A model generated the notes under the pieces. That model was not told the DNA's origin, did not search any database, and saw nothing but the letters and a program-made list of their open reading frames with translations. Below are positions 2,600-64,000 of a DNA stretch of 64,000 nucleotides, piece after piece. Every line of letters begins with the position of its first letter. The stretch's first letter is position 1. Where the stretch lies: the NCBI GenBank assembly GCA_002633005.1, contig NMRA01000318.1, positions 361,895-425,894 of the forward strand, read 5' to 3'. The DNA comes from Phoronis australis (taxonomy: Eukaryota; Animalia; Phoronida). Both the position numbers and the translations under genes were made by a program.

Positions 2600-3211
<612 letters not shown>

Positions 3212-10157: not shown

Positions 10158-10665
10158 TAAATAAAACAATCACCAATTTTCACGTTTTTGCATGTCTTGG
10201 TTTTTGTCTTTAACCTCTTTCCGCTGCCATTTGGTGGGTAGTCTTTTATGTGTTTCCACAGAGTGACTGAAATATTTGCTAGTCATCTGACTATGTACAA
10301 CTGAACGTCAAAAACTAGCTAGGAATCGTCAGTAAAAAATTGTCAAAATGAACAAATGTAGCTTTTTCAGTCCACTAAAACTCGATTTCTGGTCGTCTTG
10401 CTATGCAATTCATTCCAAACTGGAGACCACCCGGCGTTTAACCAGTGCCTACCATGTCTGATAGACCTCTGAAAGAAGCTTAATCAGACAATTATCACTA
10501 ACACCACCTTTGTTACAAATGATGACTAAGTAGAGTAGAATCCTGACGTGCACAATGACCATCTGATTTAGTTTTTGCTGTAGTAGAACTACATGTATCG
10601 GGATAGAAATGCAATTCTCTGGAAATTCATCGGAGAGTATACACTTGTCCCGTTGTTCTTTTCAG

Positions 10666-11192
10666 AATTACAACAGAGTTCTTCTAATCACAACAGTGTC
10701 AATCAGCACAACAGTGGCCAACAGCAACAACAACAACAACAGCAGTTGTATCAACAACAGTTGTATGCTCAACAACAGTTGCTTGCTCAACAACAACAAC
10801 AACAAAAGTTGTATGCTCAACAACTTGCTTTGAAGCAGCAACAGCAGCAACAACAGTTGGCTGCTCAGCAGCAACAGCAGCAACAACAGTTGGCTGCTCA
10901 GCAGCAGCAACAACAACAACAACAACAGCAACAACAATTGACTGCAGCACAGCAGCAATACTTGCAACAGCAGCAAGCAGCTATGTTGCAGCAACAACAG
11001 CAGCAGAAGCAATTGGCCATGCAGCAGCAACAGCAACAACAAGTAAACTTTTCACAACAACGGCAGAACCATTCAGCTCAACAATTGCAATATCAAGGCC
11101 ACCAGTTTCCTGTACACCAGCAACATCAACATCAGTATCAAATCCAACACCAAAATGATATCAACGGACAGCATCACCAGCAGCCAACGCAG
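10666..11192 (+). CDS. AAK1: AAK1/BMP2K glutamine-rich (poly-Q) exon
   Basis: ttttcag|AA...ACGCAG|gtaac. Open CAA/CAG-rich frame; phase 1 to 0. A Q-rich region follows the kinase in AAK1/BMP2K. Confidence 0.88.
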
Positions 11193-12176
11193 GTAACTAG
11201 TTCTTGCTTAAAGCTTCACTACCTTGAGCCTGCCAATGGTGAATATTGAGAGTAAAACTTCTGCACATAGTCTTGTGATGTGGTCAAGGTATGAGGTCAA
11301 AGGTTATAACACTCTACTTCAGGGCTTGGAGTTTTCCTCTTTCAGGAGGATTTCCCCTTTTTTAGGTTTTGATTTCCTCTTATTTGATTTCTAGTTTCCT
11401 TTTTTTAGTCTCTCTTTATCATTATTTGGACTTTATTCATGCAAAAACGTTTATTTCACTTAAACTTTACAACACAAAAAATCTATCACACCAACCAATT
11501 TGTGGAACGATACATCACCTGGAAATTTTTCCTCTTTTTGGTCATTGGTCTTTCCAAACCTAAGTAAAATTACTATACCCAGTGTTTCAATTTTGTACAA
11601 GTTAAGGGGCCAAAGGACCCTGGTTTTGCAAAATTTGCTTGTCGGCTTTGAAATGAAGAGCACAAAAATGCCTGTAACAATTCACTTTAAGTTCGTTTTA
11701 TAAACTTGTGAAAAGCTTTCAACTTTTGGTTTGAAAAGTTGGAGGCACAATGTGCTTATGATATTTACATTTTAAGTTCTAACTCAGATACCATAAGGAT
11801 TGCTTATTGCTTGCTAGGTGTTTGCTTGCCATAGGTTATGCATCCTAGTTTGAAATGGTAGACAAGTGTTCATAGATGATAGTCGTCTTCCTTTAGTCAA
11901 AGCATTACCCTGAAGCCATGTTCAACGAAGTGTTGTTCATCTACATGTTAGCATCGTGTAACACACTATCTGAAAAAAACTTCCCACGTTTGAATGTGAA
12001 AAATAATTGTTGCAATACTTTACTCTTTAGTTTATGCATTGCCCTATTAAACATTAGTCTTTAAATTTTGATTTGTGGAACGCTGCAGGTTAATGTTTTG
12101 ACTCTTTCCCCGGCCTTGCGTGTGCATTATTTCCCCTGTCACATCACTATAGTCGCATCCTGATCCACTCTTTCAG

Positions 12177-25477: not shown

Positions 25478-26031
25478 GAAGGGAAGTGTTCTGGGCCCGC
25501 TATTTAATCTTTTTACTCAAAATCAACTCGAAGTTATTTTTTCCATTTTCTTTTCCAGTTCTGTGCGAACTCGGGGTGAGTGTCTATTATTCTATGCTGG
25601 AGTACTTAATGTCTTACTTGAATGACTGTCTAATTCTAGTTTGCACCTGATGACCCCAACCGTAAGGCTAAAAGTTTGATTCTGAGTTCGAAATTTTCGG
25701 TTTGTACTCTCAATCTTAAGTTATAGCTCAAATCTAAGGGTCATCAAATGGGAACTTTGACTAGACTCTCATTTGCATCAACTATAATGTACTCAAGCAC
25801 AGAATAACAGACACTTGTCTTGAGTTCACACAACAGTAGAACAGAAAATCCTTAAAATAATTTTGAGTTTGATTTTAAGTAGAAGTATTAGACCCGGAGC
25901 TCTGATGTAGCTCACTAGGAGTTTAGATACTGAATACTTCTGTACTACAAACCTTGATTCCTGATTCTCCATGTGACTAATCTGGTATTGTCTGCTAAAA
26001 TTAGTCAAGACTTATTGTTGTTATTTTTCAG

Positions 26032-27854
26032 ACGACCACACGAACCTGACCCACCAGAGTCGCGAGTTGTATCAGGAGGTCACGACCTCACAGCAGCAGC
26101 AGCAGCAGCAACAACAAAGACAGCAGCTGGATTTAAACTTCAGTGCAAAGTCTAAAAAACTGTTTGAAACTGCCGGAATCTTAAAATCGCCCGAAGACGA
26201 TTCCTATTATAAGAAATTAGTGGACTTCGAATCGGGCAGTGACCATGATTTTCTGGATGAAAAACCTGTAACCAATGGCGAATCAGCTGATAGAGAAGAG
26301 AGCGACACAACAAGTGTGTCTAAGCCGAATGAGGTATACAGTTATAGAGAACTGGAGGACGAATTCGGGAGTAAGAAAACAACCACGGCTAACTATGTTG
26401 AGCCCTCACAGTCAGGTGTGACTCAGAATAACTCCATGGTTGTTGAAAACACAGACAGAATCATCGGCCATGAACATGGTGTCAAACCACTTCTGGCCGA
26501 TGACTTAGACTCCGATTTTGATAATTTGCACTCGAGAGACGATGATAGCAACGACCCTAGCAGAAGCAGTTCGGCTTATAGCAGCAATGCTTTAGGTTCA
26601 TCAGCTGTGCAATCTCCAGCATCCCTAGATGATGCGGTTGACGTATTTGGCTCGGCTCCATTCGATCTGAAGAAACGGAAAAAGAAGAAGGTTCCACTTC
26701 CTGTGGCAAAGTCACATGACGTTGCCGATATCTTCAGCGCTGCACCGTTTCCGGCCAACCTGCCCAAATCGAAGTCTATGCCTGGCAGTTCGGGTGAGAC
26801 CCTCTCGGAACACGTGGCACCCAAGGGCTGGTCGGGCTCATATGAGAGTACCATAGACGTGTTTGGAAGCATGCCATTCCAGCCTGGCCCTGATCCGTTA
26901 AGGACCAATCCAGCTAGAGGACCTTTGACAGTGCACCACCATGCAGCTCCTGTCCCTCACCAACGACAATTTCATCCACCTCCATTCGAAGGCATTGCCC
27001 AACAACCGTCACAATCGGCTCCCTATCTGGGATTCAGCGATGCCCAACAGAACACAGTTATACCATCAACCAACCAAACGAACAATCAGTTTCCGCAGAA
27101 GTCCGCGTCAGCTGTGCAACAGAAACCCGAGTCACAAGCCACAGTTCGCCAAAATCCAGGCCTTGTGGCTCAAACACTGAGCAAACCAAGCCTTCAAACA
27201 GATGCGAGTGCTATGGGACACATTCAGAACAGGCAGGATCTCTTTGGTAGTGTTCCCTTCGATAGTATACCCAGTGGATCCGCTGACGACGACTTCAATC
27301 CCAGAGCCGTGGAACAGGAAAATCAACCCACGAGTCATGATCCTCGAAGACAAAGGGAGATTTATCGGAAACGTGAGTGCAACAAACCACAGCAGTACAA
27401 CGATATGTCTGCCAGCGTTGAGATCATTCAGGACGACAACGAGATTGAATTCATCTCGCGGACGGGCTCGCTGAAGAAGAAAAATCGTGGTCGCAAGAGT
27501 CCACGAAGTCCGAGGAGTCCTAAAAATGTGACTGCCTACGGCAACTTGAGCTTCGAAGACCCAGATGCATTCGGAAATGACTCCGGCGAGCGTCATGTAC
27601 CTATTACAAACATTCAGGTCCAAAAAGCATTCACCCTGGACGACATAGACCAATTGAAAGATGATGTGGCGGTTAAACGGCATGCGCGCAATACTTCCTA
27701 TGGACAAGCCACTGTCATAGGCGACATGATGAGCATTCACTCGTCTGGAGCTGATTTACGAACGATAGACGAAAACAAGAGTGCTAAGAAGAACAAGAGG
27801 CCGCCACTAGCAGTCGGTAGCCAACAATATGTCAGAAAGCCTGTTGCCAAGTAG
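26032..27854 (+). CDS. AAK1: AAK1/BMP2K long-isoform terminal exon (BMP2K C-terminal-like, endocytic motifs)
   Basis: tttttcag|AC acceptor in phase 1, in frame with the 595-aa ORF. Repeated D(V/I/L)F(G/S)xxPF motifs and DDDFNPR; stop TAG at 27854. Confidence 0.85.
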
Positions 27855-38150: not shown

Positions 38151-39760
38151 GTAAATGTGAATAAACAAATTTTCTAACAGATATCAAAATTGCATTACTA
38201 AGCATACATATAAATTTGTCATAGCGCACACATTAATTGGACATCGAATTTTGCAACGAATGGCTTGCCAGAGACATAAGGCCAAATATCGGACGATCTT
38301 ATTGTGGCCAAAAACTGATTTAATAAGCCAAAATGTTTGCATTATCTATCATCACTAGATTTGAACACCAGAATTTGGTTAAATATCCCTAGAACAAGAT
38401 TAACAATTCTTGAGCGGGTGAGTCTTTCACTATCTACAACTTCTGATGACTACTTTTGACACACATTATATATTCAACAGTTTGTTTTCTATTATACAGA
38501 AAATAGTCTTCTTTCTGACAACTTGATTGCATCACGCCTCACTTAATCTGTATAAAAATGATAACTGCTATGAACTCAGCAATTTTGCCATTTTGTGTTG
38601 CAATGTAGGTTATAGCATATGCTCATGCTGCACCCCTTTCTTGATGTATGATCAGGGTGGCTACCAACTAGGCATCAATGGTTACCACTTTTGTGCAAGC
38701 TCCCCTCGCCACCAACGAGGTACCTCCGGCCTCTAGATTAGGAACCAATTCATTTACAATATTTACAAAGATTTCAGGTAACCATTTTATCTGTGGTTTC
38801 CCTAAGCCAGTCAGCTATAATTTATGCACTTGCAAGTTTCAACCAACAAAAGTCTGCTGCACGTGTTGTCAGCCATCAGTTTCACAGCAGGTGTTCATCC
38901 AAGGCACGGGAGACATCCTTCAGTATAATGAAGGACTGGATATCTTTAAAAAAGCCAAGGAACTCACCAGGTATGAGATCTAACATCTATAACAACAACC
39001 ACTGCATAAACAATTATGAGCCATGATATCCCTCAGTTTCCTCAATGTCGTTTCGCACCTACAAGACCAAGCATTCAGATAATTGGCTTTGATGCAGCAA
39101 AATGCCTGCATGGATCTATCACATGGCTTTAATGGGTAACTCAGGAATGATCCCCAACATCAGTAACGCAATACCGTTTTAAGGCTATCATGGACATTTA
39201 CCCTTAATAAATTGTGGTTGCGCTCCATTGGTTGTGCCACCCTTAATAATCTTCCAGTGCATAATAATCTCTCATTTGGGAACCAACATGCACACATTTG
39301 GGATGCACTCAGGCTTTGAGGTCCACGGAGTCCAAGGTCCGGGACCCCTCCTGCTGTCACTTTTGCATTGCTGTATTGAGAAAATAATACGACCCTGCCT
39401 CTATCAATTGTGAGAAGCCCTCTTTGGTCAGAATATTGGGTACCAACCATTCTACGAATGCCGATGATCATTCAAAGACACTTCAGTGTGTGGTAACAAA
39501 TTATACATTGTAGGTATCATTGTAAATTTTAGTGATCTTATCACAACCATAAGTATCCTGCCTGCTTCACAAATTCTGGGTCGGCTGTAAAGGCCAGTGG
39601 TTTAAAACAAAACTGGACGGCAACATTCAATGAACTCATTTTTTCTCAGATACAACGATAGGAGTTCCAGTTTACGTGTTCTGTAGAACACATTTTGAAG
39701 GGTGGTCCATTAATGTTATCACAAGTAGTCGCCAAAAATATAAAAGCGAAAAACACTTAC

Positions 39761-42700
39761 GTGACTTTCGTTTCGACTTGACCGTTTTGAATTCATCCTG
39801 AGATGAACTTGCAGAACGACCGATCTCATCTAGCTGAGAACCTGTAGCGGAAGTGCCATATTCACTCCCATGAGCTTGTGGTTCATTTGTTGCATTTGGA
39901 TGAGGTTGTTGCTCTACGGCTTCTGTGGGTGTTGGGTTTTTGGAGAGTCCGTATGCCACTGGGCCTGACCAAGTAAATCCAATGTAAAAATAGACCTTGT
40001 TGAATCTCCAAGTATGGTAAGGTGCTGGAACGGCAGACGGTATTTTCAATGTTTCGTCTTTCCAATGAAATCGTAACTCGACTACTCCCAACTTATCACT
40101 GACTCGCCCTTCAAATCGATGAAGATTATCTCGCACAACACTTGAATTCCAAAAGTTTTTACCATAGTAGTCAAATCCACTGTCCGTGCACATGTATCGT
40201 TGCATTTCCGTGCCCTTGGCAAGAAAGAAAACATTTTTTTGTTTGATACCACAACTTAAAGTTTCGTCTCTTTTAAGAAATGGGAATTTTTTGTCGTATT
40301 CTGTCTTCCACTGTTGTATAACATCTTTCAGAGGTGAAGGAACTTGATCGTGGTTAGCTTCACTTTTTTTGTCTTCTGAGCTGGGCCAGTTCAACATAAC
40401 ATAGAACAGATACGGCTCAAGAAATATTGGTGAACTGGGCAGGGTTCCCCTTTCTTCATAAAGCATATGACTCCACTTAACCATCTGAGAGAAAGGAACA
40501 TCAGTATCTTTGATCTTCCACATAGTAGTCAGTAATAGTTTCGCTCCCAGAATAATCATCAAATCTTTCGAAGACCTTCCCTCAGACTCTAAGCTATCAT
40601 ATATCAACTTGCTGATAGACTGTACTTTTTCTGCGGCCTTAAGTTTCGCCATACTAGAAAAAGAAAAGGAGTTACCACACAATCTTATAGCCCGTCTTCG
40701 TCTGTATTCACATTTTCCCAATTCGTCTAATGACTCCGGAACTTCGTCACTATCTTCTCCAAAATAAACTTTTAATTCTCCTTTGTACTTTTCAATTTCA
40801 GTTTGATCCATATATTTCTGCTTCTTCTGGTTGTCATCAAGGTATTCTTCTCTCAGCTGACTTTCCAGGTCCTCAACATCATGAAGCGTTTTTTCTACAA
40901 TTGGCCCAAGATCTTTCAGTCTGACCACCAGGTTTTGTCCGTTGGCGTTTTTCCATGGCGAAAGTGATTCAGGACAAAATTCTTGGTCAACAATGAACAT
41001 ATGAAAAGCATCCTTTTTCTTTAGCCCTTTAACACACTCCAAAAACTTCAACAGCTTTAGTGTAGTATCTAACTCACCTGCGTAACATGACAAGTTAATT
41101 AAACCATCGAAGTACTCCTGTTTTCTACAGGTTTGTGCATGTTTAAATGCCTCGATAGCTTTAAAAGCTATTTCTATGGCTTTAATCATACTGGTTGGGT
41201 CCAATGTCGCCTTTCCTTTCTTTGCCATTTCTGATGATTCATGAACGAAATGGGATTTATGCACCTGGCCGAGAGTGTTGTGAAAATAAGAACTCTCGGG
41301 AATCTTCTTTAAGCCCTCTTCTGCAAATTTTAGAGCTGATGCAAAATTGTTGTTGTAATGCAGGTAAAATCTTGCAACCTGCTGTGCAATATATGGATCT
41401 TGATTAAAGGTTTGGTACCCTTTTTGCAACATTGTGGCTGCTTTCTGGTGGGACTCTTTCGACACAACATATTCAATTAAAGGAGAAAACTTGGACCTTT
41501 GTTCTGTTTCTTCATAAAAAACACGTTTCTTCAAGACGTCTCGAACAATGGATTGCAAAGATTTCATGTGAGAACTGTTGCCATGACGTGAAAAGATCTC
41601 TTTGCGATTGAGAAACTCTGACATTATTTGACTGACAGGCTGGTGTTTGGTGAACATGTCACGGATTTCTTCGGCTAGAATTCTATTACATGTGGTCAAA
41701 CCATTCTGATAACTAATGTACTCATCTGTAGATTCAATAACTAATAACTTCCAACCATCGCTAGTGTTTCTTTCCCACTGCATTTTGTGGCGCCCAGTCC
41801 TCACAGCGCGCTGTTTTGTCGGATGCATTATACCAAATGCAAAGCTCCTAGCAGTAGTCACCTCCTTGTTCATGAGAGAATCAAAAACGGCAGTTGGAAT
41901 AGCTCTGAAGTCTTGGTCGAAGCAATTTAAAATCGCCAAATATTTCAAGGCTTTTCGTTCTTTCTCATCTGTCATTTTAGAAACAAGGTCTGTTACAACT
42001 GCTTTAATTGCTTTGCGATCAAAGTTTGTTTTCATAACATTTAATGAAAACAACATTTTCGGGTCAAACCCTTGCTTGGTTTTATGTTTTTTCTCAAGCT
42101 CCTTGTACTTGCGCAAGAACCAATCCAACTCTTTTGGGTAAAGCTTGTGACTCAAGACCAATTCCATGTCACGTTTAATAACAGTTTGACGTCTGCATAT
42201 TAGTACAACAACGCTGAATTTTTCAAGGCATCCCGTTTCTATGTTTTCTAATTCTTCATTTCTCAACTCTCTCTTGGCCAGTTTTGCTTCTGACTCCATT
42301 TCCATCCTAAATGAGCGTATTTTCTGCGGATCTTCATTGTCGTCAACTAGTATGAGAACTGGGCGGCATACACTTTCGTCATCTTCTCCAAATTTCCTGA
42401 GATTGAAGACGTGTTTGCTTGTCTGGAATGGAATTATCTCTTTGACAATAGCACACCTGTATTGCTTTCTCAGGTCCCATAGTACATGTCTGCTGGTTGT
42501 TGTTCCTCCTGCTCCAGGCTGATGGTACAAATTGATGACACCAACACAATCTCCGTCAACATGATCGGATCTCTTGCCTTCAAGCGCACTTGCAACAATA
42601 TTCTTCAATTTGGTGTGAATGTTTCGCTCACACACATGTCCATCAAAAGCAAAATTTTTCCAACTTACTTTTCCACCCCTGTAAAAACGTTCTTCTTCTT

Positions 42701-44488
42701 CCTTTTTAACTTTATCAATATCTCTCTCTTTACTCAAAATTTCTAATTCTTGCTCAAAGTTATCAATGCCTACCACTTCGAGAGATGTCAAATCTTTCTT
42801 CTCGCTAAGTTTAATGTTGCCTTTAGTAGACGGAATGTTGCAATCCACATTGACATTTGGTTTCACGAGAAGTTTTATTTGTTCTGAAAAGAGATGCCAT
42901 GGTAATCCAACAATGTTGTTCTTGAAAAGAGCGTCATCATTCTCATTTTTATACGTTCGTTTAACGATTTCTGTGTTCCAAGCATTCTCCAAACTTTCGT
43001 CTTCACACAAAACACACCACTGATTTGGAAAAGCTCTATCGATTTCTGGAAACATATCCAACATTATCGTAAAGTTTTCAGACGCAAGTGAAAACACAAT
43101 AACTGCACGGTCAGCTGGTATTTCATTTTTCAACATAGAAACCGCTTTTCGTAAACTGTCAGTGTTCGCGTTACGCCAAGACGGAAGATCAGTAATACTT
43201 CCCACTCCATTGTGGCCATTCATTAGAATCCAAGGTTTTGTGCTGTGTGTAAGAACTTTGTCGTCGTCTTTAGACCCTAATTCCTCAAGCTTTCGCATAG
43301 TAATTGGTTCGTTTCTGCTTTCCAGAGCACTGCATAACTTACTTTCCGTATCAAAATCAAAAACTGCTTTCCAATCTATATCACCGACAAAGGAAAACTT
43401 TTCTAGAATACCATCATCCGCTAGTTTACTTGGCAACGAGCTTAAAACGAGAATAGGAAACAATCCCTCATTGATAGTGCCATTTCCAAGAGTAAGAGCG
43501 TCCATGATTTGTTCACGTTTTTCGATATAAAATGACACTGGCATCGAACCACTGCCTTTCTCAGCATCATTTCTCGCTGCTCGAAGAACAGATCTGAACT
43601 TCAAAAACTGCTTCTGATCAGCACCTTCCAGTTTTTTTGTGACTTTTTGAATCAAGGCAAATAAAAATAATCGCGTAGACTGTGGTAATGTGACAAAAAC
43701 TTCTTCAACATCTGACTTTGCGTCAACAGTAATTTCTACCAGCTTCAAATTGTCTTTTCCATCATCAACGTCAACCAAATATGGCTCTGAGATGAGACCA
43801 GAAACTGTATCACGCTGATCATCTACAAAATGCTGAAGAATTCGTTGCTTTAGATCACTCATCGATTCAGTGGAAATGGGAAGTCCTTCGATTGTACCAC
43901 TCCCGTCTTTGTTGGACCGTATTCCGAAATGGAGGACGGCGTTTTGATATGAATTTAAACAACCAGCAATTGTACTAACTGCTTCACGGATGGACGGTAC
44001 GCCAAACATATCATCCCTGTTTCTACAACCAATGAATACATCAACTGGACAAAGAAGGCCTTTTTCTTCAGATGACGGAAAAACTGCCTTTGTTTTATAT
44101 TTGGCCACACTAGGAGGTTCATCAACCTTCTGCACAAGCGCTGTAGTGATATCCAGTTCAGCTGGACGGCGCTCAACCTGTTTCTTTGGAGCATCATGGG
44201 ATAGTACAGTGGTGGACAGACCTTTTTTCCAATTTGACTTGATTTTAAGTTTCGTTCCTATAAGCAGTTCGGGAAAATATTTATTCATCACCACCTCGTA
44301 ACTCTGGATATCACTAGAGGTCAATTCCTCCATTGCATTTCCATCAAACTCTAATGTTTCGAATTTTTGGGCATCATTTTCCCTGAGTTGGCAGGTGAAT
44401 ATCAACCAATCCTTTACTTGTGAAGGAGACATTGAAGCCAATTCCAACTTTTTAATTTCTTCTGTCCTTTGGTTTTTGGGTTCTTCAG
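39761..44488 (-). CDS. SAMD9L: SAMD9/SAMD9L-family protein, main exon (SAM, AlbA_2, SIR2-like, STAND P-loop NTPase, TPR, OB-fold)
   Basis: 1591-aa ORF with family motifs: SAM (QVKDWL...FDGNAM), AlbA_2 (IAGCLNSYQNAVLHFGI), IDWKAVFDFD, FYRGGKVSWKNF, Walker A-like LYHQPGAGGTT, Walker B PVLILVDD, EPYLFYVMLNWP and C-terminal VYFYIGFTWSGPVAY. Acceptor tttatag|CT at 44488; probable donor TCAC|gtaagt at 39761 (read-through stop at 39672). Confidence 0.92.
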
Positions 44489-46297
44489 CTATAAAGCCAA
44501 CAAAAATTTCATTACCTATGTTTTAACACCCATGGCAATACTGAATGTACCATTCCAAGTATGTGATTATCAGACCAGTGTACCATCAAAACTACATTTG
44601 TCGATTGAGTACTTTGGACGCCAGGTTGCAGATTTTTCAGTAAATTCGCACATTTTCGTGTACATACTTTTCTGCATGTTAGCCTGATTGAAATTGTGTT
44701 CAGCTGGTACTTTTCCTGGTTACTTACCTTTGAAATAGTTTTTAAAATACACTTAGTTATATGACCACCGATTTTAAGAATTATCTAAGGTTTTTAGTTG
44801 GTGGACCACGCTTACTGTACTGAAAGGATCCAGTTAATCAATAGAAAGGTTCCTTTAGTTACTTAAGTTAAATAATTATGAATTCATGTTAATACATGGC
44901 GTGTAATATACCAACCATTCACAAAGTTTGGAATATTATTCATTGCGAGAGTCAATGAACAAGTGCTATCGTACTGTCTGACAACTTTTGATACGTGATA
45001 TTGTTGGTATTACAAAGTTCTACCTGATAATATGTCTAGAAACATAAGTGACCAAAATCTCAGTTAAAATGTACTCAGTGCATTTAATTTTCAGGTTGCG
45101 AGGTACTTAATAGTATAAACTATCACTAAACCACTTAGATCGTCTTTAAGTATAGCTTTATTACTCATCAACCATAACAAGTTGGGATGAAATTTGAAAA
45201 CTTTTGCCAAGTCAAGTAAATTGGCAAATGTGACTACCGTAATCGTTCGGGTTAACGCCCTGGGCGGTTAAATTGGCGAATCCAAAAAATCGGGGGAGAG
45301 CGGTTAACCGAGCAGTGGGCGGTTAAATCGAAAATCCACCTAAAGTAGGGGATGGGTGGTTAACCGAACATGGGCGCTTATTACGACAGACAACCGCCCT
45401 GGGCGGTTAATCTTACCTGACGATCTAAATCCCGACACAACAATCATACTCAGAATGCGTAGCCCTTTTCAAAGAGCTTTATCGTCACGTCGCTAAATGA
45501 CTGTGAAAACATAACAGCGGATTATCCCAACAGAGGTTCTCTTGCCCTCAGATTAGTCATTCATTATTAAATTTACAAAATTGCTGAGTAATAGCCCCGT
45601 GCCGTCCTGCGGTGCGCAGACGACCAGTGACCACGCAGCCTCCACTAGAATTAAAACTGTTTCAAGATGTGACCCTGCTTAAGTGCGCGCGTGCAAGCTT
45701 CACGTGTTGCAGAGGTCAGACATCAAATTTATGGTTACAGTCACATACTATATGTAGCTGTCAAGTTCTGACTCAGAGAGCAGTTTTAAAATTGGTTGTA
45801 ATAAAACTTTGAAGAACTTAACTCTGCTGTTTTTTTGTGTTTGGGATGTTATAGTCGACATTCCGTGACTCAATGACATTTTCAGCGTATGGTTCTGCGG
45901 CTAGCTGTTTTATCTCGACAGCTCGGCATTGCTCTCTTGCCGTTGCACCAAACATGCTATGCAAAGAAGTAAGACAAGGATCGGGGTTGGTCGAGCCAGT
46001 CGTCGATCAAGAACAAAATTTCAAGCAACTGCATAAATATGTTACAAAATGTCAGAAAACAGCAATGTTTCAATTCATTATTCTAAACGATCTCCTTACC
46101 AAACTTCGTGGTGGAAAAACATTTATTTTTCATGCAAGATGTCCAGATTATCCTATTTATATCACTTGTAATATCGCACTGCGGCACTGTTCGGTCCCGC
46201 TGTTATCGCGCAATGTCTCAGTCAGCTGACAATCGTGACTTGGAAATGCCGTCAAGTAATATAACGGCCTGACTTTCAATATGCATCGCGTTTTTTA

Positions 46298-46394
46298 CAC
46301 AGGCGTCCTCAGCTTCTGATCGTCCTCAATACACTACATATAATACTACTATATGTAGTGTATTGGGGACGATCAGAAGATGAGGACGCCTGTG
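46298..46394. mobile_element. 97-bp palindromic MITE with 8-bp TSD (hAT or P superfamily)
   Basis: 45-bp arms CACAGGCGTCCTCA... with 2 mismatches. GTTTTTTA is duplicated on both sides. The insert is absent from the homologous opposite arm at ~48040. Confidence 0.88.
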
Positions 46395-48586
46395 GTTTTT
46401 TATGGCCAAAGACAGTCACGTGGCGGTATTCAGCACGCACGTAGTAGGGTCTACGTGTGAGTCACCTGTCAATCACATGTTGGGGTCAAGGTAACATGCA
46501 CTCCAAAGTGTGGGAACTTGCGCACGTGCACCACTACAAATCAATCACACATAGCGACAGTCCGAAGTAACAAAAACGGGCGTGACTATGTGCTTTTAAG
46601 CTGTTGTTACGAAAGACCCAGTTCTTTACAATATTCCTCCGTTGCCAATGTTCCCCAAAACTGCGATGTCAAGTCTATTGCCATATTTCCCGGCTCGATG
46701 CTCCCTAAGCCCATCCCTTTAACTAGTTGTGTGAACTAATCATCTACCCACTATCGTCAAGTAGTCTACGTCGTAGATATTTCAGACTGTTTCCAGTTAA
46801 GCGCCCACCTCTCGGTTAAGCGCCCATCCCCGACTTTTAAAGAATGAAGATTTAGCGCCTAGTGCTAAGGAAAAGCGCAAGCGCGATTCCCCGACTTTCA
46901 GGAAAAGATCGATGATCTCAATGAGTGCAACGACGCCGGGACTCCGAGACGGTGGTTTAGCAATCTGAATTACAATACAGGTAACGAGTTACTGTCTTGG
47001 GTCATGAACTCACTTCAAAATATAATACTTGGACCTTTTTGTCACTTTATTTTCTTCCCTAGTTTGCAAAGTTTAAGAACGCTGCCGGCGTGAAAACCTC
47101 CGCTTTCAGCGACTTTGTCTACCGCGCTGAGTGTCCGTCTGCAGTGCATTAGATAAAACATATATTTGAAAAACTCAGGCCAGAGAAATGTGACAATGGT
47201 TTTGCCAACCCTCCAAATTCTATTAAGGTGGGAAGCTCTCGTATTTTGAACAAATCTCACAACTCAAGGAAAGATGTCAAATTCTCAATATTTTGATGAA
47301 TATAACTGCCGGGTTATAGAGGATGTGGGGCGACCGAAGGGACAGTACAAGTGCCTTACTGGGTTACCGATTTTGTTGCTGCTTGTCGATTTCTGGATTC
47401 AAACGTAATAATGTATGTTTGTGTATGATCTTGAAGTAATAAAAAACCGCTAGTCAAATTTTGTTTTTCGCTTATTGCATCTCAGTCAAACTGGTTAGCA
47501 GATTTAAAACTAATGTCGCTGGCTGTTCTATACTATTTCTTGCGTCAGCCCCCACATAAGCATGACTGTGTGAATTATCGTTTCCACATGCCCTTTTTAG
47601 CCATCCGGAATAATTTTGTTTACACGTTGGCCATTTTCAGTCTGAACAAAAATTCTTACCATTCGAGTCCGAAATATCTACGACGTAGACTGCTTGACGA
47701 TAGTGGGTAGGAGATTCACAGCTAGTTACAGGGATGGGCTTAGGGAGCATCGAGCCGGGAAATATGGCAATAGACTTGACATCGCAGTTTTGAGGAACAT
47801 TGGCAACGGACGAATATCGTAAAGAACTGGGTCTTTCGTAACAACAGCTTAAAAGCACATAGTCACGCCCGTTTTTGTTACTTCAGACTGTCGCTATGTG
47901 TGACTGATTTGTAGTGGTGCACGTGCGCAAGTTCCCACACTTTGGAGTGCATGTTACCTTGACACCAACATGTGATTGACAGGTGACTCACACGTAGGCC
48001 CTACGTGCGTGCTGAATACCGCCACTATCTTTGGCCATAAAAAACGAGATACATATTGAAAGAGGCCATTATATTACTTGACGGCATTTATAAGTGACGA
48101 TTGTCAGCCGACTGAGACATTGCGCGATAACAGCGGGACCGAACAGTGCCGCAGTGTGATATTACAAGTGATATAAATAGGATAATCTGGACATCTTGCA
48201 TGAAAAATAAATGTTTTTCTACCACGAAATTTGGTAAGGTGATCTTTTAGAATAATGAATTGAAACATTGCTGTTTTCTGACATTTTGTAACATAATTAT
48301 GCAGTTGCTTCAAATTTTATTCTTGATCGACGACTGGCTCGACCACCCTAGATCCTTGTCTTATTTCTGTGCATAGCATGTTTGGTGCAACGGCAAGAGA
48401 GCAATGTCGGGCTGTCGAGATAAGACAGCTAGCCGCAGAACCATACTCTGAAAATCTCATTGAGTCACGGAGTGTTGACTATAACATCCCAAACACAAAA
48501 AGCAGGAGAGTTAAGTTTTTCAAACTTTTATTACAACCAATTTTAAAACTGCTCTCTGAGTCAGAACTTGACAGCTACATATACTA

Positions 48587-49883
48587 CCGTAATCGTTCGG
48601 GTTAACGCCCATGCTCAGTTAACCGCCCACCCCCTACTTTAGGTGAATTTCGATTTAACCGCCCACTGCTCGGTTAACCGCCCCCCTGCTATTTTTGAAG
48701 ATTTCCAATTAACCGCCCCCTGCTCGGTTAACCGCCCATCCCCTACTTTTGACGATTGGTGATTACCGCCCTGTGCTAATAGAAAACGCGAATCCCCGAC
48801 CTTTTAGATTAAGATCGATAACATTGAGTGCAACGACGGCCTTAGAGACCGCGGTTTAGCAATGTGAATTATGATACCAGTAACAAATTATTGTAACGGG
48901 TCATCGATTAACTTCAAAATGTAATACTTGAACACTTTGTCACTTTCTTTTCTTCTCATGTTCGCAAACTTTAGGAACCGCGCTGGCGTCTACACCTCCA
49001 CTTTCAGCCACAATCTCTGCCGCACTGAGTTATCGACTACAGTGCACTATATAAAAGANTAAATGTTTTTCCACCACGAACTTTGGTAAGGTGATCGTCT
49101 AAGAATGAATTGAAACATTGCTGTTTTGTGACGTTTTATCACATATTTATGCCGTGGCTCGAAATTTTGTTCTTGATTGACGAGTGGCTCACGACCGCTT
49201 AACCCCGATTCTTGTCTTACTTCTTTGCCGAGCATGTTTTGCGCAACGGCAAGTGAGCAATGCCGGGCAGTCGAGATAAAACAGCTGGCCGTAGAACCAT
49301 ACGCAGAAAATGTCATTGAGTCACGGAGTGTCGACTATAAACATCCCAAACACAAAAAACATCAAACTTTTATTACAACTGCTCTCCATGAACTTGACAG
49401 CTAGCACGAGGTGCACTTTAGCAAGATCACATCTTGAAATAGTAGCAATCAAAGTTGAGGCTGCGTGGTCACTGATCGTCTGCGCTCTACAGGGCAAAGT
49501 AACAAGACCGCAGGACAGCACGGGGCTATTACTCAGCAATTCTGTAAATTTAATAGTGAATAACTAATCTGAGGGCAATAGGACCTTTGTTGGGATCATC
49601 CGCTGTTATGACATGTTTTTGTCATGTGGCGAGGTGACGTTAAAGCTCTTTGAAAAATGCTACAGGTTCCGAGTACGTGTGTGCTGTGGGGACTCAGATC
49701 ACGAGGTAAGATTAACCGCCCAGGGCGGTTGCTTGTCGTAATAAGCGCCTATGTTCAGTTAACCGCCCACCCTGAATTTCTTGAAATTTCACGTTTAAGC
49801 GCCCATGTCTGGTTAACCCCCCACCCCCGATTTTTTGGGTTCGCCAATTTAACCGCCCAGGGCGTTAACCCGAACGATTACGG
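48587..49883. mobile_element. Nested 1.3-kb MITE of the same TA-target family
   Basis: 24-bp TIR CCGTAATCGTTCGGGTTAACGCCC at both ends, TA flanks, GGTTAACCGCCC subterminal repeats. The empty site is visible in the left arm at ~45745. Confidence 0.88.
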
Positions 49884-51134
49884 TAGTACGGGACTGTAAC
49901 AAATACCATAAATTTGATGTCTGACCTCTGCAACACGTGAAGCTAGCACGCGCGCACTTAAGCAGGGTCACATCTTGAAACAGTTTTAATTCTAGTGGAG
50001 GCTGCGTGGTCACTGGTCATCTGCGCACCGAATGACAGCACGGGGCTATTACTCAGCAATTTTGTAAATTTAATAGTGAATGACTAATCTGAGGGCAAGA
50101 GAACCTTTGTTGGGATCATCCGCTGTTATGATGTTTTCACAGTCATTTGGCGACGTGACGATAAAGCTTTTTGAAAAGGGCTACGCGTTATGATTGTCAT
50201 GTCGGGATTTAGATCGCCAGGTAAGATTAACCGCCCAGGGTGGTTGTCTGTCGTAATAAGCGCCCATGTTCGGTTAACTGCCCGTCCTCTACTTTAGGTG
50301 GATTTTCGATTGAACTGCCCACTGCTCGGTTAACCGCCCTCCCCCGATTTTTTTGATTCGCCAATTTAACCGCCCAGGGTGTTAACCCGAATGATTACGG
50401 TATGTTTAAATTTCCACAAATTTGCCGTCTATACCATTATTCCATTCTATGCTATTATTAATTTTTTTCGACAATTTCCGGTCTATGCTATTATTCTACT
50501 TTTCTAGTGGCAAAAATGTTGGGTCTATACTATTATTAGAGTCTCTACTGAAAATCGTGAAATTTTCCAGTCAATACTATTATTGCTGTCTCTACTACTA
50601 TTCGCAACTCCAGAGTACTGCATTAGCGATGACTCCAAGGCAATAAAACACTGGCTGAAATAAACCAAACTATCATGGAGTAAAACTGATATTTTTTCTA
50701 TCAAATTTGGTTTCCGAAATTGAAATCTCCATGGAAAATTTTGTTATTGTCGTTCGTTTCCGAAGAAATACGATAAATATTGGCCAAATACGATGTCATT
50801 GTTGTTCTTACAAAGGGAAGTGTGTTTACTGTAATGTCAGATAAAAATTGTTTTATGAGTGTCAAGAAAATAATGCAGGAACGCTTTAAAGATAAAAACT
50901 TGTTACCTGATCCTGGAAACTCCTTTTGTGTGAACAAGTTGAAATTGTACGCTGTACATTTTCTACTATATCATTAAACTACTCATGTTCAAAAAACCAT
51001 GGAAAGTACATCAGGACTCATCTACAAGGTCTACCTGGCACATTTGATAGAATTTCATTCACACAATCCGAGAAGGAAGGCGTTAAGTGTGTAAATGGTT
51101 TTCCTCCGTGTGACAAATACCTTGCAAACTCATG

Positions 51135-51305
51135 AAATATGACAATGTAAAATGTAACAATGGTACATTCCACATAAATTGTAACAATTCATAAAATGTA
51201 ACAACTTGTTACATTTTAGGAGAAGCCTAGCAACAAAAAATGTAACAATAACATAAAATGTAACAGTTATTACATTTTACGAAATTGTTACATTTTACAG
51301 CCTAT
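51135..51305. repeat. AAAATGTAACA subterminal-type repeats in both orientations (DNA transposon end relic)
   Basis: Multiple AAATGTAACA / TGTTACATTTT copies. Confidence 0.5.
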
Positions 51306-51539
51306 CAAAGCCTTAACACCCAACAAGCTTGGAATTCCATAAAATAGGGGAATATTAGGGAATAAAAGCAAATGAATATTCAAAAAGTTCACTGAGTGTT
51401 TCATGCATTTTCCAGTTCTTACGCAAACATTTTCCTTCGAAAAATGTGGTTAGACCCCCCCTTACTATATCCTGGATATGCCAGTCACCATAGCTGGGAC
51501 TGCTGGAGATTCTAAATACACTTTATTTTGCTTTCTTAC

Positions 51540-51834
51540 CTACGACAGGATCGTAACCTTCAAAAGATGTCTTGTCAAGCAATTCCGCCAAATGTGATGC
51601 CATTTCTGACAATGCTTTGTATAATGCTTTGTAAGCGTCGTCTCCTTTTTGGCAAATAAACTTTAAGAGTAACTCATTTTTATGTTGAGTAGTTTCTCTA
51701 CATTCGATCCTCTCTTTCTGATCTTCCGACAAAATATTTTCTTGGTACAATGTGTTCACCACCTCGTACGTGGGAATATCCTTGAGAAGATTCAGGTGAT
51801 TTCTTTTCAGTCTCCACAGCTTCTGTGAATTCAT
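51540..51834 (-). CDS. CARD (death-fold) exon, probable first coding exon of the SAMD9-like gene
   Basis: MNSQKLWRLKRNHLNLLKDI...VVNTLYQENILSEDQKERI...KNELLLKFICQKGDDAYKALYKALSE...HLAELL is a typical CARD pattern. Acceptor ctgcag|GTG at 51840, ATG at 51834, donor GTAG|gtaag in phase 1, matching the 44488 acceptor. Confidence 0.85.
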
Positions 51835-52152
51835 GTTCACCTGCAGAGTATGAAGTGTAACAATATTAATTAAACAAGCAGTTTCGAGGGCATTCGTCGT
51901 TGCTTATAGCACCAAATTGCTCACCAGAAAATGAAACACTGAGCAAATAAACAATCACCACTGAGAGCACCACGTCTGCAATTCCACGTACCCATCCTCA
52001 ACCAAACAGTGACAATAGGCCTGGTGCCTGCGTACATACACTCTATGACTGATGTTGCATTTGCATGAATTTGGTAATTTTTTTTCTTCGTGGTGAGCAT
52101 GTTTGCCTGCATATTGTATTTTGCACATGACAGCTGGCGAACATGACCTCAC

Positions 52153-63096: not shown

Positions 63097-64000
63097 CAGG
63101 CCCGTAGGAAGGTAAAAATTATTGGGGGGGCACCGACCCTGGTCGATACGTAACTTCCAATTTCGAAACCACTGCGTTGCACTGGGGTATATATATCAAC
63201 GCTGTAAAATGAACTACTGCAACCACTAGGTACGTTTTGAATTATATGAAAAAATATGTCTACTAATAATAAGGTGTGTAACAGATGCTGTACTTTTAGA
63301 GTTAATTTTTTGTTAAGATTGACTGGAAATTTTTGGAGCAACATACATGCCGCTCATACGATTACTCTTGCTGAACAGTAAGAATGAAGGTGTGAAATAA
63401 TTATAAATGTTTTTATTTACTCTTCAACATAAATCAGTGGACGTTGCCCTGCTGCACACAGGAACTCGGGCTGCAGCTAAGTCTAACGTGGTAAAAACCC
63501 CGAGTTGTGCCTTTCGCATTTCACTTCCTCGTACAAAATCGTTTGCCACATCCACCAAATTTAGCTTATCGCACATGTCTTTGTGAACATGGAGCAACAT
63601 TAAATGGTTCAACCTCCCCTGTCCCATTGTGGAACGTAAATATGACTTAACACGCCTAAGAGCACTAAATGCTCGTTCGCTACTGGCATTTGTTGCAGGC
63701 ATCACTAACAGCAAGTTTGCTAGTTTAATTACATTTTCGATCAAGTGTTTTTGACCGGCTGATAATTTCTGCAAATGATCCACAACACGAGACAATGTTA
63801 CCTCTTGACTACCATCCTGTGCATAATTGGCCCCAAACGTAGCCAGGTGACAGCGCAGTGTTGAATCAAAATCATCTTCATAAAAACTGATAACATCTTG
63901 GTATTCATTTTCAAAGTTTTCCCCTTTTGCCGCCTTGAGTATCAGCTCCTCACACTGCATATAAATTTTGTAATCTTCTTGATCAAACCTGTCCCGTATT
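63097..64000 (-). mobile_element. hAT DNA transposon, 3' end
   Basis: Candidate TIR CAGGCCCGTAGGAAGG...GGGGGGG at 63097, downstream of the transposase ORF. Confidence 0.7.
63424..63999 (-). CDS. hAT transposase C-terminus (ZMYM1-like, dimerisation domain), 5'-truncated by the window
   Basis: LLLVMPATNASSERAFSALRRVKSYLRSTMGQGRLNHLMLLHVH. The frame is open to the window end (IRDRFDQEDYKIY). Confidence 0.92.
   Translation of the reverse strand: MRDRFDQEDYKIYMQCEELILKAAKGENFENEYQDVISFYEDDFDSTLRCHLATFGANYAQDGSQEVTLSRVVDHLQKLSAGQKHLIENVIKLANLLLVMPATNASSERAFSALRRVKSYLRSTMGQGRLNHLMLLHVHKDMCDKLNLVDVANDFVRGSEMRKAQLGVFTTLDLAAARVPVCSRATSTDLC

What the first reader, a model, noticed from the sequence alone, without database searches (positions are those of the whole stretch)
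39761..51840. CARD-SAMD9 fusion: an NLR/apoptosome-like version of the SAMD9 antiviral sensor
Seen: a standalone CARD exon (51834-51540) ends in a phase-1 donor. The large SAMD9 exon 7 kb downstream on the same strand begins with a phase-1 acceptor (44488). The join is in frame: ...EGYDPVV-A-EEPKNQRTEEIKKLELASMSP. Known: vertebrate SAMD9/9L begin with SAM and use AlbA_2 as the effector, whereas CARD+STAND+repeat is the architecture of Apaf-1/NOD receptors. Inference: NTPase-driven oligomerisation could cluster CARDs and recruit a caspase or adaptor. Death-fold fusions in some invertebrate SAMD9 homologues may already be catalogued, so novelty is unverified.
Basis: partly seen in the sequence, partly recalled or inferred. 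Interest (0 to 1): 0.85.

Follow-up and report, generated by a model that had tools for sequence, protein, structure and literature searches.

The report
CARD-headed SAMD9 with degenerate nuclease site
An invertebrate relative of the human antiviral protein SAMD9 is likely spliced to a caspase-recruitment (CARD) exon and has lost two of the four acids of SAMD9's tRNA-cutting site, so it would likely signal through its CARD instead of cutting tRNA; the CARD-SAMD9 layout itself has been in print since 2017.

Summary
The sequence observation holds. The 98-aa exon is a CARD (Pfam E=1e-14; about 1 Å from Apaf-1 CARD). The large exon is a SAMD9 homologue (E=7e-56), and the phase-1 sites join in frame. 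No RNA read shows the junction; the runs barely cover this copy. Homologues support the join: 27 of 150 carry a CARD, and their N-termini map onto both exons in order. The idea is not new: Mekhedov et al. 2017 reported CARD-bearing SAMD9 and predicted apoptosome-like particles. None of 28 CARD-bearing rows keeps all four catalytic acids, against 21 of 84 others. One tree branch (support 99) separates intact/CARD-less from degenerate/CARD-bearing proteins, and a PYD-bearing member lost the nuclease independently. Best reading: an effector swap from tRNase to CARD signalling. It rests on few independent events, and a wheel-like apoptosome is not shown. None of the 8 (of 32) earlier SAMD9 notes shown describes a CARD fusion.

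The parts
51540..51840 (-). CARD exon (acceptor before 51840, ATG 51834, phase-1 donor after 51540); 98 codons plus 1 base
   Evidence: Met1 of homologues P0002, P0004, P0006 aligns to 51834
44489..51539 (-). Predicted intron, 7,051 nt, GT..AG; 45233-50402 is filled with nested inverted and direct repeats of dispersed elements; no coding exon candidate passed a strict filter
39761..44488 (-). Large SAMD9-like exon, 1,575 open codons (frame also reads through the donor at 39760 to a stop at 39672)
44205..44438 (-). SAM domain (about residues 17-94 of the exon); no Pfam hit, supported by fold only
   Evidence: helical domain with pLDDT 80-94; SAM structures at Foldseek prob 0.90-1.00 but E 0.08-0.5
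43551..44123 (-). AlbA_2 / tRNase-fold domain with degenerate active site: E196>V (44039), K198>I (44033), K214>P, R221>S (43976), D241>S (43916); E218 kept (43985); E184 probably kept (44069, next to a 2-residue deletion)
   Evidence: fold match 7ksp E=4.5e-10, rmsd 2.6 Å; residue mapping; same result with three more MAFFT modes; functional residues from PMC10246899
42807..43469 (-). SIR2-like and adjoining region (approximate bounds)
   Evidence: colinear alignment to 9zjr; domain order from PMC5445408 and PMC13600222
41487..42689 (-). STAND NOD (approximate bounds): H737, GGT Walker A (42524-42507), Walker B DD (42344), sensor-1 R (42191) kept; WHD H985 is N (41687)
   Evidence: residue roles from PMC13600222
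39945..41459 (-). TPR region and C-terminal OB-fold region (approximate bounds), followed by a low-complexity tail
   Evidence: weak TPR_19 hit E=0.02; alignment to 9zjr up to residue 1514

Best explanation
This is likely a two-exon gene for a CARD-SAM-AlbA_2-SIR2-like-STAND-TPR-OB protein whose AlbA_2 domain keeps the fold but has lost key catalytic and tRNA-binding residues, so the CARD likely serves as the effector. Shown: the CARD, the SAMD9 core, compatible splice sites, the residue losses and the intact ATP-binding motifs. Inferred from homologues: the splice. Inferred from human SAMD9: the protein rests in a closed ATP-bound state, and an infection or stress cue opens the SIR2 and TPR-OB parts and drives dimers or higher oligomers. 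Inferred: this, perhaps helped by SAM-SAM contacts, clusters the N-terminal CARDs, which recruit a CARD-bearing caspase or adaptor for cell death or immune signalling. The dead AlbA_2 would act as a scaffold, sensor or decoy. My odds: splice about 0.85, no SAMD9-type tRNase activity about 0.8, CARD as main output about 0.6.
For: CARD. Homologues: Pfam CARD above cut-off in 19 of 150 hits, 8 more by a family HMM; named ones are from Mytilus, Potamilus, Argopecten, Ostrea, Saccostrea, Haliotis, Littorina, Solemya, Nucella, Sinanodonta, Mya, plus Ridgeia P0151. P0081 (5,299-nt Logan contig) and P0161 (6,600-nt) encode CARD and core in one contiguous frame. P0081 residues 6-94 map to the CARD exon and 113-366 to the large exon from 44441, with matching spacing. 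No other minus-strand coding partner was seen between 28,000 and 64,000. Active site: 0 of 28 CARD rows (27 homologues plus this one) keep all four acids, against 21 of 84 others; single alanine changes at E196 or D241 abolish human activity (PMC10246899). One branch with support 99 in three trees splits all intact rows from all CARD rows. E196 is kept in 23 of 24 versus 7 of 85, D241 in 22 of 24 versus 12 of 85, while fold-core residues stay conserved. PYD-bearing P0049 has no AlbA_2 and nests inside the intact branch (99-100), a second event.
Against: No read or contig was shown crossing 51540/44488; raw reads give depth 0 on the CARD bin and on the acceptor bin. The CARD/dead-site association is essentially one evolutionary event, plus the PYD case. 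The sample is the top 150 of 678 hits to this query. Most rows in the degenerate branch (74 of 102) show no CARD, though many are probably single-exon ORF calls. Sixteen rows in the intact branch lack AlbA_2 and have no CARD, so nuclease loss does not require a CARD. The published Lingula CARD protein is a distant form whose AlbA_2 appears by eye to keep an E-F-K motif and acidic residues, so CARD and an active nuclease may coexist. P0029 and P0089 keep 3 of 4 acids. No SAMD9 wheel has been solved. This protein sits on a long branch, outside both the intact group and the rest of the degenerate group in the IQ-TREE runs (96), so its CARD may be an independent gain.
Confidence: 0.55

Rival explanations
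1. The fusion is real but the CARD is regulatory or a docking module (localisation, an upstream activator, self-association alongside SAM); the output lies elsewhere, for example nucleic-acid binding by AlbA_2/OB or a re-wired nuclease site.
For: AlbA_2 fold is retained with a conserved core across the degenerate branch; E218 and probably E184 are kept here; CARD-less isoforms are annotated in Ostrea (P0162); Mekhedov et al. suggested SAM and death folds are functionally interchangeable.
Against: No new conserved acidic cluster replaces E196/D241 among the first-half AlbA columns of the degenerate branch, and the tRNA-binding basic residues are lost too; the protein carries both CARD and SAM, so CARD is not simply replacing SAM.
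Confidence: 0.22
2. The CARD exon is not joined to this exon: it belongs to a separate short CARD-only transcript or is an orphan exon, and the SAMD9 protein starts at an internal Met near the SAM domain.
For: No junction reads; the CARD frame has its own stop at 51523, five codons past the donor; phase match has a high chance rate; many homologues begin at SAM.
Against: Colinearity with contiguous CARD-SAMD9 homologues, including Met1 and linker length; strong AG|GTAAGA donor right after the CARD fold; no other partner exon in the window.
Confidence: 0.13
3. The copy is a silent or decaying paralogue in an expanded family, and its odd residues reflect drift.
For: Almost no reads of 99% identity in three raw RNA runs, while more distant paralogues are expressed; long terminal branch; extra departures in AlbA_2 core positions.
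Against: A 1,575-codon open frame with all tested ATP motifs but H985 intact; the same catalytic losses run through the whole branch; run X4 (RNA is a guess) holds two contigs matching the exon with 2-3 differences. Such genes are often inducible (general knowledge).
Confidence: 0.1

Closest known systems
Invertebrate and fish SAMD9-family proteins with death-fold domains (Mekhedov, Makarova, Koonin 2017, PMC5445408; e.g. Lingula XP_013415988 CARD-AlbA_2-SIR2-STAND-TPR-OB)
   Same: Same domain order and the same predicted apoptosome-like role.
   Different: That paper predates the tRNase discovery, and the parts read say nothing on catalytic state. Its CARD example is a distant form that aligns poorly to human SAMD9 and may keep its acids. 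This protein has CARD plus SAM plus a degenerate site.
Mollusc and annelid 'SAMD9-like / CARD domain-containing' database proteins (e.g. XP_069113691, XP_056004003, VDI65140, KAK2174874)
   Same: N-terminal CARD from about Met1, SAMD9 core, degenerate AlbA_2.
   Different: Only 32-36% identical; most have a CARD-to-AlbA_2 spacer about 70-140 residues longer; none was found characterised in the papers searched.
Human SAMD9/SAMD9L (tRNA-Phe anticodon nuclease; PDB 7ksp, 9zjr)
   Same: SAM, AlbA_2 fold, SIR2-like, NOD with H...GGT Walker A, DD Walker B and sensor-1 R, TPR, OB.
   Different: Extra CARD; E196, D241, K198, K214, R221 replaced; WHD H985 is N.
Apaf-1 / CED-4 and CARD-NLRs (NOD1, NLRC4)
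   Same: N-terminal CARD on a STAND switch with C-terminal repeats; the CARD model superposes on Apaf-1 CARD at about 1 Å.
   Different: NOD is SAMD9-type (no Walker A lysine), not NB-ARC or NACHT; TPR-OB instead of WD40 or LRR; three domains lie between CARD and NOD; no wheel shown.
Bacterial Avs9 (Legrand et al. 2025, PMC12680541)
   Same: AlbA_2-SIR2-STAND-TPR-OB layout.
   Different: Avs9 kills through an intact AlbA_2 site and has no CARD or SAM.

Membership tests
SAMD9 family (Mekhedov core) | AlbA_2-fold domain N-terminal to the core | tested here: met
   Fold match to 7ksp E=4.5e-10; no Pfam AlbA_2 hit
SAMD9 family (Mekhedov core) | SIR2-like, STAND, TPR and OB regions colinear with human SAMD9 | tested here: met
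   One alignment over residues 167-1514, E=6.8e-56; domains not folded separately
SAMD9 family (Mekhedov core) | Variant Walker A: upstream His, GGT/S instead of GKT/S | tested here: met
SAMD9 family (Mekhedov core) | SAM domain (not universal) | tested here: inconclusive
   No Pfam hit; confident helical domain with SAM fold matches at prob 0.90-1.00, E 0.08-0.5
SAMD9/9L tRNase (nuclease-active type) | Four catalytic acids E184, E196, E218, D241 | tested here: not met
   E196>V, D241>S in four alignment modes; E218 kept; E184 probably kept
SAMD9/9L tRNase (nuclease-active type) | tRNA-binding K198, K214, R221 | tested here: not met
   I, P, S at these columns
SAMD9/9L tRNase (nuclease-active type) | tRNA-Phe cleavage | not testable with these tools
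   needs an assay
CARD domain | Profile score above cut-off and six-helix death fold | tested here: met
Apaf-1 / NLR receptors | NB-ARC or NACHT NTPase with canonical GKT/S | tested here: not met
   No NB-ARC or NACHT Pfam hit at E<=1; Walker A is GGT
Apaf-1 / NLR receptors | WD40 or LRR sensor | tested here: not met
   TPR/OB region instead
Apaf-1 / NLR receptors | Ring oligomer that recruits a caspase or adaptor through CARD | not testable with these tools
   no host partner sequence available; not attempted
CARD-SAMD9 fusion transcript | Spliced 51540/44488 junction in RNA | tested here: inconclusive
   No coverage of this copy in raw reads

The most novel reading that the evidence does not exclude
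The animal SAMD9 family split early into two functional classes that coexist in one animal (oysters have both): tRNA-cutting enzymes without a death fold, and a large lophotrochozoan-centred class of pseudo-nuclease receptors that signal through a CARD. The second class would be a third kind of CARD-STAND death receptor beside Apaf-1 and the NLRs, with the dead AlbA_2 kept as an integrated decoy or sensor for viral SAMD9 antagonists. Fish repeated the swap with a PYD. This gene would be a deep-branching member of that class.
Probability: 0.3. Interest if true: 0.8.

Novelty: new variant of a known kind. Interest (0 to 1): 0.5.

Why it matters
Eukaryotic STAND proteins normally signal through adaptors; SAMD9 is the known exception, with a built-in nuclease. 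If the CARD branch has traded the nuclease for adaptor signalling, one scaffold spans both modes. That makes the 2017 prediction of a SAMD9 apoptosome testable in the right proteins, and points to an unexamined family of antiviral or death receptors in molluscs and related animals. The bare CARD-SAMD9 architecture adds little to what is published.

Tried and rejected
No own genome is held, so paralogues and host caspases could not be searched. No RNA holder was listed for the exon. Laying three raw runs (18-19% of each read) and one contig set gave no junction among the joints shown (243 not shown) and only paralogue-like reads on the exon; this is uninformative. Three word-based homologue searches found nothing: exon residues 1-600, alignment A2, whose length window was unsuitable, and the CARD against longer proteins. 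The ESM Atlas gave no answer. PADLOC gave only a weak JetB hit, taken as chance. A hidden linker exon in the intron was not found by tblastn or a strict splice filter; small or weak exons could be missed. No downstream coding exon was found for the 39760 donor. The careful bootstrap tree did not finish, so one search shows the quick PMSF tree. The joined protein was not folded, and no complex was predicted because no host partner was available. Earlier-findings look-ups by words and by sequence found nothing; one search showed 8 of 32 SAMD9 notes, none on a CARD fusion. The host lineage was not determined.
Full report
1. Observation. On the minus strand, a 301-nt exon (51840-51540) opens with an acceptor, has ATG at 51834 and ends in AG|GTAAGA, phase 1. 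A large exon begins at 44488 after a T-rich acceptor, phase 1, and the join is in frame. The peptide is a CARD: Pfam 54.3 bits against a cut-off of 23.9, six-helix model with pLDDT 87, 0.9-1.1 Å from Apaf-1 CARD. The large exon has 1,575 open codons and aligns to human SAMD9 over residues 167-1514 at E=6.8e-56. A model of its first 400 residues shows a SAM-like helical domain and an AlbA_2 domain matching 7ksp at E=4.5e-10. The 7,051-nt gap is mostly repeats and held no candidate coding exon.

2. Is the splice real? Phase agreement is weak evidence: 5 of 10 AG sites inside the open frame near the exon start are phase 1. RNA did not settle it. Three raw runs, 18-19% of each read, gave depth 0 on the CARD bin and on the acceptor bin; of 36, 61 and 16 reads laid on 38900-45200, none was 99% alike and most were under 90%. 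Run X4, whose RNA status is a guess, holds two exon contigs with 2-3 differences and unlisted contig depth 4 in the CARD bin. Homology is the strong argument. Of the best 150 of 678 hits, 19 carry a Pfam CARD above cut-off and 8 more match a family CARD HMM at E<0.01 (one partial match ignored). Named ones are bivalves and gastropods, plus a Ridgeia cluster member. With tblastn their N-termini hit the CARD exon (Met1 of three at 51834) and then the large exon; P0081 maps 6-94 and 113-366 with matching spacing. P0081 and P0161 come from contigs of 5.3 and 6.6 kb with the whole fusion in one frame, which suggests spliced RNA. I put the join at about 0.85.

3. Human SAMD9 needs E184, E196, E218 and D241 for tRNA cleavage and K198, K214 and R221 for binding (PMC10246899, passages). 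I fixed the numbering from the PDB alignments, confirmed by the 2017 supplement, and carried it across with a vertebrate-like anchor, P0109. Here E196 is V, D241 is S, K198 is I, K214 is P and R221 is S. E218 is kept, and E184 is probably kept beside a 2-residue deletion. Four MAFFT modes agree. The ATP switch is intact: H737, GGT, DD and sensor-1 R; the WHD histidine H985 is N, as in 36 of 102 rows of its branch (roles from PMC13600222).

4. Family pattern. Of 152 rows (150 hits, P0151, this protein), 117 had an AlbA_2 match. Four incomplete rows and the near-duplicate P0151 were dropped, leaving 112. None of 28 CARD rows keeps all four acids; 21 of 84 others do. A core tree that excludes CARD and AlbA_2 (143 rows, 9 left out) has one branch with support 99. 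One side has 41 rows, all 21 intact proteins and no CARD (best CARD-HMM E=3.2). The other side has 102 rows, all 28 CARD rows and no intact site. Subsets of 63 and 46 rows under IQ-TREE give the same split. Among complete domains, E196 is kept in 23 of 24 versus 7 of 85, K198 in 23 of 24 versus 2 of 85 and D241 in 22 of 24 versus 12 of 85, while structural C, N, G and F positions stay at 0.9-1.0 on both sides. The intact side includes Glandiceps, Branchiostoma and a Crassostrea cluster; other oysters (Ostrea, Saccostrea) sit on the CARD side, so the split looks like an old duplication (inference). P0049 (SAM-PYD, no AlbA_2) nests in the intact side, a second coupling of death fold and nuclease loss.

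5. Results against this reading. The split is one event, unrooted, in a sample biased to this query. 74 of 102 rows on the degenerate side show no CARD (many probably single-exon ORF calls, as P0001 versus P0151 shows). Sixteen rows on the intact side lack AlbA_2 without gaining a CARD. P0029 and P0089 keep three acids. The Lingula CARD protein of the 2017 paper is a distant form that, read by eye from the supplement alignment, appears to keep an E-F-K motif and acidic residues. This protein is a long branch lying between the intact group and the other degenerate rows (96), so its CARD may have a separate origin.

6. Mechanism. Human SAMD9 rests closed and ATP-bound, hydrolyses very slowly if at all, and forms asymmetric dimers needed for activation; higher oligomers that cluster the N-terminal effectors are proposed, not solved (PMC13600222, abstract and passages). 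By analogy, opening and oligomerisation here would cluster CARDs rather than nucleases and recruit a CARD caspase or adaptor. This step is inferred; no partner was tested. It works like a CARD-STAND receptor but fails the Apaf-1/NLR membership features tested (no NB-ARC or NACHT, no WD40 or LRR).

7. Literature. PMC5445408 (parts 1-2 of 4 of the text, part 1 of 2 of supplement 1, passages of supplement 3) already reports CARD, Death, Pyrin and FIIND in SAMD9 homologues and predicts apoptosome-like particles. PMC12680541 (passages, sections 7-8) has no occurrence of 'CARD' or 'invertebrate' in its main text; its supplements were not read. PMC13245274 (passages) only cites the invertebrate distribution. 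The SAMD9L cryo-EM preprint was seen as a listing only. Six searches listed no paper on a catalytically degenerate CARD-bearing branch; the library lacks most subscription journals, so this is not proof of absence.

8. Verdict. A real, probably spliced CARD-SAMD9 gene whose architecture and apoptosome idea are published. The added value is the degenerate nuclease site and its coupling to the CARD-bearing branch, which suggests an effector swap. New variant of a known kind; interest 0.5.

Noticed in passing
window about 3133-27854, + strand: Multi-exon kinase gene convergent with the SAMD9-like gene, with a kinase motif exon near 3150, a Gln-rich exon at 10587-11249 and a 625-aa exon at 25977-27854. 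It looks like AAK1/BMP2K; the name is recalled, and Pfam gave no real hit on the large exon.
   Followed up: no
window 39760: Perfect GTAAGT donor, phase 1, at the end of the large exon; no downstream coding exon found, and the frame can also read through to the stop at 39672.
   Followed up: partly
window 38295-38852: A 558-nt contig of run X4 ends about 25 nt past a minus-strand poly(A)-signal hexamer at 38324; may be the 3' end of this gene's transcript.
   Followed up: partly
window 45233-50402: Nested inverted repeats (arms up to about 550 nt, 92-94% alike) of dispersed elements that draw reads from both strands.
   Followed up: partly
window 39900-43300: Stranded RNA reads at 85-95% identity show that other SAMD9-like paralogues are expressed in this species.
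   Followed up: no
window 63424-64000, - strand: hAT transposase C-terminal dimerisation domain, Pfam E=3.9e-10. Other broken frames near 57.9-59.5 kb and 30.2-31.3 kb look like mobile-element remnants (by eye).
   Followed up: no
homologues P0083, P0116, P0191, P0041, P0086, P0097, P0103, P0106, P0123: Further effector shuffling on the SAMD9 scaffold: HEPN-like plus CARD (P0083 strong; P0116, P0191 weak), C-terminal AIG1 GTPase, ubiquitin-like domains, a protein kinase.
   Followed up: no
homologues P0011 / P0162 (Ostrea edulis): Annotated isoforms with and without the CARD, suggesting a possible splice switch.
   Followed up: no
window 41687-41685: The WHD histidine whose loss activates human SAMD9 (H985) is Asn here and is His in only 23 of 102 rows of this branch, so autoinhibition may differ.
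   Followed up: partly
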